Assembly (NCBI RefSeq): GCF_003334405.1
Contig: NZ_QOWM01000056.1
Source: Escherichia coli
Lineage (GTDB): Bacteria; Pseudomonadota; Gammaproteobacteria; Enterobacterales; Enterobacteriaceae
Direction: 5' to 3' (one strand)
DNA length: 693 nucleotides
Each line of letters begins with the position of its first letter. Positions within the stretch are counted from its first letter, which is position 1. Shown here in pieces: positions 1 through 693 of this stretch. The notes under the pieces were generated by a model. It ran no database searches. It was not told the origin of the DNA and saw nothing but the letters and a program-made list of their open reading frames with translations. Position numbers and translations under genes: made by a program.

Positions 1-673
1 GGGTCTATACCCTGCAACTTAACGCCCAGTTAAGACTCGGTTTCCCTTCGGCTCCCCTATTCGGTTAACCTTGCTACAGAATATAAGTCGCTGACCCATT
101 ATACAAAAGGTACGCAGTCACACGCCTAAGCGTGCTCCCACTGCTTGTACGTACACGGTTTCAGGTTCTTTTTCACTCCCCTCGCCGGGGTTCTTTTCGC
201 CTTTCCCTCACGGTACTGGTTCACTATCGGTCAGTCAGGAGTATTTAGCCTTGGAGGATGGTCCCCCCATATTCAGACAGGATACCACGTGTCCCGCCCT
301 ACTCATCGAGCTCACAGCATGTGCATTTTTGTGTACGGGGCTGTCACCCTGTATCGCGCGCCTTTCCAGACGCTTCCACTAACACACACACTGATTCAGG
401 CTCTGGGCTGCTCCCCGTTCGCTCGCCGCTACTGGGGGAATCTCGGTTGATTTCTTTTCCTCGGGGTACTTAGATGTTTCAGTTCCCCCGGTTCGCCTCA
501 TTAACCTATGGATTCAGTTAATGATAGTGTGTCGAAACACACTGGGTTTCCCCATTCGGAAATCGCCGGTTATAACGGTTCATATCACCTTACCGACGCT
601 TATCGCAGATTAGCACGTCCTTCATCGCCTCTGACTGCCAGGGCATCCACCGTGTACGCTTAGTCGCTTAACC
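1..673 (-). rRNA. rrl: 23S (LSU) ribosomal RNA, 5' portion (domain I and start of domain II); partial, gene continues past window position 1
   Basis: Reverse complement of 637-673 reads GGTTAAGCGACTAAGCGTACACGGTGGATGCCCTGGC, the canonical mature 5' end of enterobacterial 23S rRNA. Further universally conserved 23S blocks follow in the correct order on the minus strand: CTGAAACATCTAAGTA (rc of 467-482), CCCCAGTAGCGGCGAGCGAACGGGGAGCAGCCC (rc of ~406-438), ACCGATAGTGAACCAGTACCGTGAGGGAAAGGCGAAAAGAACCCCGGCGAGGGGAGTGAAA (rc of ~173-231), and GGGTATAGACCC (rc of 1-12). Colinear over the whole window with no indels that I can detect by eye. Confidence 0.97.
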
Positions 674-693
674 TCACAACCCGAAGATGTTTC
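674..693 (-). other. pre-23S 5' leader / 16S-23S spacer segment directly upstream of the mature 23S 5' end (one strand of the presumed RNase III processing stem)
   Basis: Reverse complement of 674-693 is GAAACATCTTCGGGTTGTGA, immediately abutting the mature 5' end GGTTAAGCG. In enterobacterial rrn operons this flanking sequence pairs with sequence 3' of 23S to form the RNase III processing stem. The pairing partner lies outside the window, so the boundary and role are inferred from established knowledge rather than seen. Confidence 0.6.

What the first reader, a model, noticed from the sequence alone, without database searches (positions are those of the whole stretch)
1..693. Window is entirely conserved rRNA operon sequence (23S 5' third); no novel system present
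Every base is accounted for by the 23S rRNA gene (1-673, minus strand) and its 5' leader (674-693). The level of sequence recognisability, including the variable regions of domain I, points to Escherichia/Shigella-type Enterobacteriaceae. This is core housekeeping sequence, so the prompt's suggestion of an undescribed system is not supported here.
Basis: partly seen in the sequence, partly recalled or inferred. Interest (0 to 1): 0.1.

Follow-up and report, generated by a model that had tools for sequence, protein, structure and literature searches.

The report
Ordinary E. coli 23S rRNA gene fragment
The window is the first 673 bases of a standard Escherichia coli 23S ribosomal RNA gene plus 20 bases of its upstream processing leader, identical to thousands of sequenced E. 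coli genomes; it is core housekeeping sequence and nothing new is hidden in it.

Summary
Rfam's bacterial LSU rRNA model matches window 673..1 (minus strand) at 614 bits, E = 7.5e-201, starting at model position 1. All 693 bases are 100% identical to annotated 23S genes in many E. coli genomes, and all 5,426 complete genomes have a match. The annotated 23S 5' end falls exactly at window 673. The window equals rrlG, rrlD, rrlB and rrlE of K-12 MG1655 base for base.

The 20-nt leader (674-693) pairs with the 23S 3' trailer in a long processing stem (-40.8 kcal/mol, z = -6.3). Its distal 13 nt are the 3' end of the described spacer RNA StyR-44.

Plus-strand ORFs antisense to the rRNA match no protein family. 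They break outside Enterobacteriaceae and change mostly nonsynonymously, so they are not genes. There is no insertion, intervening sequence or chimeric junction in the window.

Minor corrections:
- The window covers 23% of the gene, not a third.
- Shigella could not be tested.
- The exact helix-25 tip is one of several E. coli alleles.

Verdict: already known; low interest.

The parts
1..673 (-). 23S (large-subunit) ribosomal RNA gene, mature positions 1-673 of about 2,904: domain I and the first helices of domain II. The gene continues beyond window position 1.
   Evidence: Rfam RF02541 at 614.4 bits, E = 7.5e-201, model positions 1-716, truncated at the 3' side only. 100% identity to annotated 23S rRNA in E. 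coli. The annotated 5' end coincides with window 673. Identical to MG1655 rrlG, rrlD, rrlB and rrlE.
674..693 (-). 5' leader of 23S rRNA (positions -1 to -20 of the precursor): the 5' strand of the leader/trailer processing stem that RNase III cleaves.
   Evidence: When joined to the rrnG 3' end and trailer, the leader plus 23S 1-8 forms a long, nearly continuous stem with the 23S 3' end and trailer: -40.8 kcal/mol, z = -6.28, 0 of 200 shuffles as stable. The 20 nt are invariant in all seven MG1655 operons and in the Salmonella and Klebsiella-type sequences. Cleavage by RNase III is established knowledge and was not tested here.
681..693 (-). Last 13 nt of the spacer RNA element StyR-44 (Rfam RF01830), cut off by the window edge.
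   Evidence: In the identical ER1709 copy, StyR-44 matches L001 6681-6780 (-) at 105.3 bits (gathering score 54), which is window 681 onwards. The same arrangement is seen in L013, L019 and L020. Chinni et al. 2010 (PMC2943607) describe it as lying upstream of 23S in all seven operons and possibly a metastable processing intermediate.
122..133 (-). Tip of helix 25 (23S about 541-552), the main allele-variable spot within the window. Here it carries the K-12-type tip GCACGC-UUAG-GCGUGU, with no intervening sequence.
   Evidence: The alignment of E. coli alleles and relatives shows variation concentrated here. All variants fold into a hairpin on the same basal stem. Salmonella houtenae carries an insertion of about 110 nt at this point. 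MG1655 rrlH differs at 23S position 542.
530..539 (-). Second variable hairpin (23S about 135-144), which changes by compensatory swaps between alleles and species.
   Evidence: Window GUGUGU-UUCG-ACACAC, O157 and Salmonella GUGUGA-UUCG-UCACAC, Klebsiella-type GUGCAA-UUCG-UUGCAC: both sides change together.

Best explanation
The window is the promoter-proximal 23% of an Escherichia coli rrl gene (23S rRNA), read on its antisense strand, plus the last 20 nt of the 16S-23S spacer. It is transcribed as part of a 16S-tRNA-23S-5S precursor. The 20-nt leader pairs with the sequence just downstream of the 23S 3' end to form a long double-stranded stem that RNase III cuts a few nucleotides outside the mature ends. 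The spacer fragment released upstream is what was cloned as StyR-44. The mature 1-673 segment folds into domain I and the start of domain II of the large ribosomal subunit RNA. Shown here: identity, boundaries, fit to the covariance model, leader/trailer complementarity, compensatory variation, and operon context of identical copies. Inferred from established knowledge: RNase III cleavage, end trimming and the role in the ribosome.
For:: RF02541 at 614 bits, E = 7.5e-201, model positions 1-716, minus strand 673..1; 100% identity over 693/693 to annotated 23S rRNA; hits in 5,426 of 5,426 E. coli genomes, median 7 places per genome; an identical copy lies in the rrnG context (clpB, 16S, tRNA-Glu, 23S, 5S, kgtP), with the annotated 5' end at window 673; 0 differences to MG1655 rrlG, rrlD, rrlB and rrlE, and 1-3 to rrlH, rrlC and rrlA; leader/trailer stem at -40.8 kcal/mol, z = -6.28. 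StyR-44 ends 8 nt upstream of 23S position 1; differences between alleles and species sit in hairpin tips and are compensatory. StyR-44 was detected by northern blot in S. Typhi and E. coli, is processed from longer precursors and lies upstream of 23S in all operons.
Against: Nothing found contradicts it. Limits: the window stops inside the gene, so it cannot be shown that this particular copy is full length or which operon or strain it comes from. RNase III cleavage and ribosomal function were not tested here.
Confidence: 0.98

Rival explanations
1. One of the plus-strand ORFs antisense to the rRNA (145..450, 101 aa; 258..473, 71 aa; 508..663, 51 aa) is a real protein-coding gene overlapping the 23S gene.
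For: The ORFs exist and stay open in Salmonella, Citrobacter and the Klebsiella-type sequence. The exception is the 51-aa frame in Salmonella, which loses its stop codon.
Against: No Pfam match (best independent E = 0.11) and no NCBIfam match above cut-off. Outside Enterobacteriaceae the 101-aa and 71-aa frames are broken by stop codons or by indels that are not multiples of three. In the 101-aa frame: Vibrio 11-nt deletion and 2 stops, Acinetobacter 8-nt deletion and 1 stop, Ralstonia net +2 frameshift, Azospirillum 5 stops. The 51-aa frame acquires a stop only in Ralstonia and elsewhere drifts by frameshifting indels, so its evidence is weaker. Among enterics, changed codons are mostly nonsynonymous (for example 12 against 3) and substitutions are spread evenly over codon positions (7/5/5), the opposite of a coding signature. 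No sigma-70-like promoter on either strand. ORFs overlapping bacterial rRNA are a documented annotation artefact (PMC3203614).
Confidence: 0.01
2. The sequence is E. coli-type 23S, but the window does not come from an E. coli chromosome. It could be a plasmid-labelled or phage-labelled record, host DNA contamination, or a chimeric or collapsed metagenomic contig.
For: Copies at 100% identity occur in records labelled plasmid and at 99.9% in a 5.4-kb record labelled phage. The whole window is present at 100% in two MAG contigs binned as Oxalobacter and Desulfovibrio, whose flanks have no E. coli match. The window is very short, and its leader end (-20) is exactly where the seven rrn copies start to diverge, as expected for a repeat-collapsed assembly fragment.
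Against: 37,962 of 37,974 places in complete E. coli genomes are chromosomal. The MAG contigs are mosaics with crossovers inside conserved rRNA. The phage-labelled record examined is simply an rrn operon and is flagged UNVERIFIED. This rival changes only the provenance, not what the sequence is.
Confidence: 0.1
3. The window is a truncated or decaying rRNA gene fragment (a pseudogene) and not part of a working rrl gene.
For: The window ends inside the gene, so completeness cannot be shown from it alone.
Against: There are zero differences from four functional MAG1655 copies, that is MG1655 rrlG, rrlD, rrlB and rrlE, including the leader. A decaying copy would be expected to have accumulated changes. 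The 5' boundary and leader are intact.
Confidence: 0.02

Closest known systems
Escherichia coli K-12 rrlG / rrlD / rrlB / rrlE (23S rRNA genes; Rfam RF02541 LSU_rRNA_bacteria)
   Same: All 693 bases are identical, including the 20-nt leader. The 5' boundary is the same. The fit to the covariance model starts at model position 1.
   Different: Nothing within the window. Only the first 673 of about 2,904 nt are present because the window ends.
E. coli rrlH, rrlC, rrlA and other E. coli 23S alleles (O157:H7 type, BCE049 type)
   Same: Same gene, boundaries and leader. Identity is 98.6-99.9%.
   Different: There are 1-3 point differences in MG1655 rrlH, rrlC and rrlA. Other strains carry a different helix-25 tip sequence and a U-A/A-U swap at 23S positions 137/142. 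These changes are compensatory, and the hairpins are kept.
Salmonella 23S rRNA genes with a helix-25 intervening sequence
   Same: 97-98% identical outside the insertion, with an identical 20-nt leader.
   Different: The S. houtenae copy has about 110 extra nt at the helix-25 tip that fold into a long stem (-67.2 kcal/mol, z = -6.05). The window has the short E. coli tip and no insertion.
StyR-44 (Rfam RF01830), spacer-derived RNA upstream of 23S
   Same: Window 681-693 is the last 13 nt of the element as mapped in an identical E. coli copy. The element is present upstream of 23S in all operons (PMC2943607).
   Different: Only 13 of about 100 nt lie in the window, so the element itself is essentially outside it. 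Its authors could not exclude that it is just a processing intermediate.
PF10695 'Cw-hydrolase', a spurious protein family built from ORFs antisense to 23S rRNA (Tripp et al. 2011)
   Same: Same phenomenon: long open frames on the strand opposite a conserved 23S gene.
   Different: PF10695 derives from the 3' end of 23S. The ORFs in this window lie over the 5' quarter and match no Pfam family.

Membership tests
Bacterial large-subunit rRNA (RF02541) | Sequence-plus-structure match to the curated covariance model above its gathering score | tested here: met
   614.4 bits against a gathering score of 50, E = 7.5e-201, posterior probabilities near 1 throughout.
Bacterial large-subunit rRNA (RF02541) | The mature 5' end coincides with model position 1 and with curated annotation | tested here: met
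   Model position 1 is at window 673. The PGAP 23S feature ends at L001 6673, which is window 673.
Bacterial large-subunit rRNA (RF02541) | Lies in an rrn operon (16S - spacer tRNA - 23S - 5S) | tested here: met
   Shown for identical copies (ER1709 rrnG; MG1655 operons). The window itself is too short to show its own context.
Bacterial large-subunit rRNA (RF02541) | The leader pairs with the 3' trailer to form the RNase III processing stem | tested here: met
   -40.8 kcal/mol, z = -6.28, using the trailer of the identical rrnG copy. Cleavage itself was not tested.
Bacterial large-subunit rRNA (RF02541) | Helices are maintained by compensatory changes across relatives | tested here: met
   Two variable hairpins change on both sides together, and all helix-25 variants fold on the same basal stem.
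Bacterial large-subunit rRNA (RF02541) | Full-length gene (about 2.9 kb) | not testable with these tools
   The window ends at 23S position 673, and the source record is not available.
Escherichia coli rrl allele | Near-identity to E. coli copies, with clearly lower identity to other genera | tested here: met
   100% to E. coli. Salmonella 97-98%, Citrobacter 95.8%, Enterobacter-associated record 95.4%, Klebsiella-associated record 95.2%, Vibrio 83%, Acinetobacter 82%. Shigella was not testable. Among species representatives, the exact helix-25 allele occurs only in two chimeric MAG contigs.
StyR-44 (RF01830) | Covariance-model match above the gathering score | tested here: inconclusive
   Met in the full context of the identical copy (105.3 bits against 54). 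Only 13 nt fall inside the window, too few to match alone, and no StyR-44 hit was reported for the window.
23S rRNA with an intervening sequence (helix-25 IVS) | Extra stem-loop of about 100 nt replacing the helix-25 tip | tested here: not met
   The window has the short tip. The insertion is seen only in the Salmonella houtenae comparison sequence.
Protein-coding gene on the plus strand | Frame conserved across relatives, excess of synonymous change, match to a protein family | tested here: not met
   Frames are broken outside Enterobacteriaceae. Changes are mostly nonsynonymous with no third-position bias. No Pfam or NCBIfam match.

The most novel reading that the evidence does not exclude
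The least ordinary reading not strictly excluded is that the plus strand of this stretch is transcribed and one of the antisense frames (for example 145..450, 101 aa) yields an enterobacteria-restricted small protein. A second such reading is that the leader/StyR-44 fragment has a regulatory role of its own beyond being a processing by-product. Neither is suggested by the data. The frames are not conserved beyond the range where the rRNA itself is nearly identical, and the window holds only 13 nt of StyR-44.
Probability: 0.01. Interest if true: 0.4.

Novelty: already known. Interest (0 to 1): 0.03.

Why it matters
It does not matter beyond bookkeeping. This is one of the best-characterised sequences in biology. 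The useful outcome is negative: the window can be removed from any list of candidate undescribed systems. Two practical reminders follow. First, long open frames antisense to rRNA should not be called as genes. Second, exact E. coli rRNA segments turn up in records labelled phage, plasmid or unrelated MAG through contamination or chimeric assembly, so a taxonomic label on a contig carrying rRNA is not evidence about the rRNA's origin.

Tried and rejected
(1) Antisense protein-coding reading. I listed all ORFs of 20 aa or more and scanned the 101-aa ORF against Pfam and the three longest against NCBIfam; nothing passed. I then checked frame conservation in nine relatives and the synonymous/nonsynonymous pattern. 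Rejected.

(2) Insertion, intervening sequence or chimeric junction inside the window. The alignment to E. coli is gapless at 100%. The alignment with Salmonella shows the helix-25 IVS there but not in the window. Rejected.

(3) Mobile-element origin. I searched the plasmid and phage collections. The hits are whole rrn operons in records that are mislabelled chromosomes or chromids, tiny rrn-only records, or unverified phage entries. There is no evidence of a genuine mobile context.

(4) Antisense expression signals. The promoter/terminator scan found 0 promoter-like sites and 2 terminator-like sites on the plus strand, against 0.6 +/- 0.8 expected. The two sites are the complements of rRNA helices. 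Not pursued.

(5) Using the exact helix-25 allele to list species that share it. The genome-contig scan returned only two MAG contigs, both shown to be assembly mosaics. This gave no information on Shigella or other Escherichia species. The likely reasons are that representative genomes carry other alleles or lack assembled rRNA; I did not check this.

(6) The large protein-database searches, structure prediction and fold search were deliberately not used. No protein hypothesis survived the cheap tests.

Full report
**Observation.** The window was scanned against all Rfam families. A single family passed: bacterial LSU rRNA (RF02541), on the minus strand from window 673 down to window 1. It covers model positions 1-716 of 2,925 at 614.4 bits (gathering score 50), E = 7.5e-201, and is truncated only on the RNA's 3' side by the window edge. 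673 nt is 23% of a 2,904-nt gene, so "5' quarter" is more accurate than "5' third".

**Identity.**
- Megablast against 5,426 complete E. coli genomes found a match in every genome, with a median of 7 places per genome. Many records are 100% identical over all 693 bases, and every listed hit lies under a feature annotated "23S ribosomal RNA".
- In strain ER1709 the identical copy sits in the rrnG context (clpB, 16S, tRNA-Glu, 23S, 5S, kgtP). The annotated 23S 5' end (L001 6673) equals window 673.
- Compared with the seven operons of K-12 MG1655, the window has 0 differences to rrlG, rrlD, rrlB and rrlE. It has 2 to rrlH, 3 to rrlC and 1 to rrlA.
- Other genera are clearly further away: Salmonella 97-98%, Citrobacter 95.8%, an Enterobacter-associated record 95.4%, a Klebsiella-associated record 95.2%, Vibrio 83%, Acinetobacter 82%, Ralstonia 77.5%.
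- The Escherichia attribution is therefore supported. Shigella could not be tested with the available collections.

**The leader.**
- Window 674-693 in RNA sense is GAAACAUCUUCGGGUUGUGA and immediately precedes GGUUAAGCGACU, the mature 5' end.
- I joined the leader by an artificial loop to the 3' end and trailer of the same operon. It then forms one long, nearly continuous helix with the trailer and extends helix 1: -40.8 kcal/mol, z = -6.28, and no shuffle of 200 was as stable.
- This is the classical 23S processing stem. Cleavage by RNase III and later end trimming are established knowledge and were not tested here.
- The 20 nt are invariant in all seven MG1655 operons and in the Salmonella and Klebsiella-type sequences.
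- Rfam also places StyR-44 (RF01830) at L001 6681-6780 (-), ending 8 nt before 23S position 1. Window 681-693 is therefore the last 13 nt of that element.
- Chinni et al. 2010 cloned StyR-44 from S. Typhi and detected it in E. coli too. They placed it upstream of 23S in all seven operons and noted it may be merely a metastable processing intermediate (PMC2943607). An end about 8 nt upstream of the mature 23S end fits a fragment released by the RNase III cut; this last point is my inference.

**Variation and structure.**
- In 2,227 of 5,435 E. coli records the best match is only 95-99%.
- An alignment of representative alleles and relatives shows the differences concentrated in two hairpin tips. 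The first is 23S about 135-144 (window 530-539), where both sides change together: GUGUGU/ACACAC, GUGUGA/UCACAC, GUGCAA/UUGCAC. The second is the tip of helix 25 (23S about 541-552, window 122-133).
- All helix-25 variants fold into a hairpin on an identical basal stem.
- The Salmonella houtenae copy carries an insertion of about 110 nt there that folds into a long stem (-67.2 kcal/mol, z = -6.05). This is the behaviour expected of the known helix-25 intervening sequences. The window has no such insertion.
- This pattern of conserved pairing with changing sequence is what an RNA under structural selection shows.

**Rivals.**
- The only alternative with any substance is that a plus-strand ORF antisense to the rRNA is a gene (145..450, 101 aa; 258..473, 71 aa; 508..663, 51 aa).
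- None matches Pfam or NCBIfam.
- The frames are open only where the DNA is at least 92% identical. In Vibrio, Acinetobacter, Ralstonia and Azospirillum the two longer frames are disrupted by stops or by indels that are not multiples of three. The 51-aa frame gains a stop only in Ralstonia and otherwise drifts by frameshifting indels.
- Among enterics, changed codons are mostly nonsynonymous, with no third-position excess.
- No promoter-like site was found on either strand.
- Such ORFs are a documented annotation artefact. The spurious Pfam family PF10695 came from the 3' end of 23S, outside this window (PMC3203614).

**Provenance.**
- Identical or near-identical copies occur in records labelled plasmid or phage.
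- The phage-labelled record I examined (PQ800148.1, 5.7 kb, flagged UNVERIFIED) is nothing but 16S, tRNA, StyR-44 and 23S.
- A scan of species-representative genomes for the exact helix-25 allele returned only two MAG contigs, binned as Oxalobacter and Desulfovibrio.
- Both contain the whole window at 100% identity, yet their flanks have no E. coli match.
- Identity profiles show crossovers inside conserved rRNA. In L019 the 23S is about 100% E. coli up to about position 2460 and then falls to 71%. In L020 the 16S is 57-91% up to about position 830 and 100% afterwards. These are assembly chimeras, not evidence that other genera own this allele.
- The window's leader end (-20) is exactly where the seven MG1655 operons begin to differ: columns -21 to -28 vary and include a 9-nt indel. 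Together with the window's shortness, this hints that it may be a repeat-collapsed assembly fragment. I could not test this.

**Comparison with the known, and verdict.**
- The sequence is a member of RF02541 and is an exact copy of four named K-12 genes. Every defining feature that could be tested was met.
- No base is unexplained, and nothing is inserted or fused.
- The finding is already known, and interest is very low (0.03).

Noticed in passing
window 693 (the edge), which is position -20 of the 23S leader; compare L002-L008: The seven MG1655 rrn operons are identical from -20 to -1 and start to differ at exactly -21 (substitutions at -21 to -28 plus a 9-nt indel). The window therefore ends precisely at a copy-divergence point. 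With the window's short length, this suggests it may be a repeat-collapsed assembly fragment. No matching divergence point was seen at the other end within MG1655.
   Followed up: partly
L019 (JAHAYL010000010.1, Oxalobacter-bin MAG) 9903-12805; L020 (USBZ01000017.1, Desulfovibrio-bin MAG) 11755-14492: Two MAG contigs hold the whole window at 100% identity, but their flanks have no E. coli match. Identity profiles show crossovers inside conserved rRNA, at 23S about position 2460 in L019 and at 16S about position 830 in L020. They are chimeric metagenome assemblies at rRNA operons sitting in species-representative genomes.
   Followed up: yes
L013 (PQ800148.1 'Klebsiella phage Kpn_R1', 5,687 bp); also OR844775.1, OR845267.1, OR850889.1, PV358070.1: Several 5-7 kb unannotated records deposited as phages match the window. 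The one examined consists entirely of a bacterial rrn operon (16S, tRNA, StyR-44, 23S) and is flagged UNVERIFIED. It is probably host DNA and not a phage genome.
   Followed up: partly
plasmid collection hits: NZ_OL790696.1 (4.8 Mb), NZ_CP134663.1 (4.9 Mb), CP088634.1 (6,560 bp), NZ_CP087347.1 (A. baumannii, 5,402 bp): PLSDB holds chromosome-sized records labelled as plasmids and tiny 'plasmids' that appear to be just an rrn operon. The 5.4-kb A. baumannii 'plasmid' is 93.5% identical to E. coli 23S, whereas another A. baumannii record is 82%. This suggests enterobacterial contamination or misassembly.
   Followed up: no
L012 (Salmonella houtenae AGRM01000003.1), alignment A1 columns about 561-681; corresponds to window about 122-133: An insertion of about 110 nt sits at the helix-25 tip of a Salmonella 23S gene and folds into a long stem (-67.2 kcal/mol, z = -6.05). 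This is consistent with the known helix-25 intervening sequence, which is absent from the E. coli window.
   Followed up: partly
L012 785-804 (record 2612-2752, SEHO0A_03482): The Salmonella houtenae record annotates a 'hypothetical protein' CDS starting 3 nt upstream of the 23S gene, over the leader/StyR-44 spacer. It is very likely a spurious ORF call inside an rrn operon.
   Followed up: no
window 122-133 and 530-539; L009, L010, L011: E. coli carries at least three distinct helix-25 tip alleles: K-12 type CACGC-UUAG-GCGUG, O157/NCTC9082 type CACAGA-GCAA-UCUGUG, and BCE049 type CCUC-UUUAU-GGGG. About 41% of complete genomes have no copy at 99% or more identity to the window.
   Followed up: partly
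window 175-191 and 431-447, plus strand: Two terminator-like hairpin-plus-T-run matches lie on the antisense strand (2 found against 0.6 +/- 0.8 expected). They are the complements of rRNA helices followed by A-rich rRNA segments, and are not credible terminators.
   Followed up: no
E. coli genome search statistics: Places per genome range from 1 to 20 (median 7), and 12 places are on plasmid records within complete E. coli assemblies. The outliers with many or few rrl copies were not examined.
   Followed up: no
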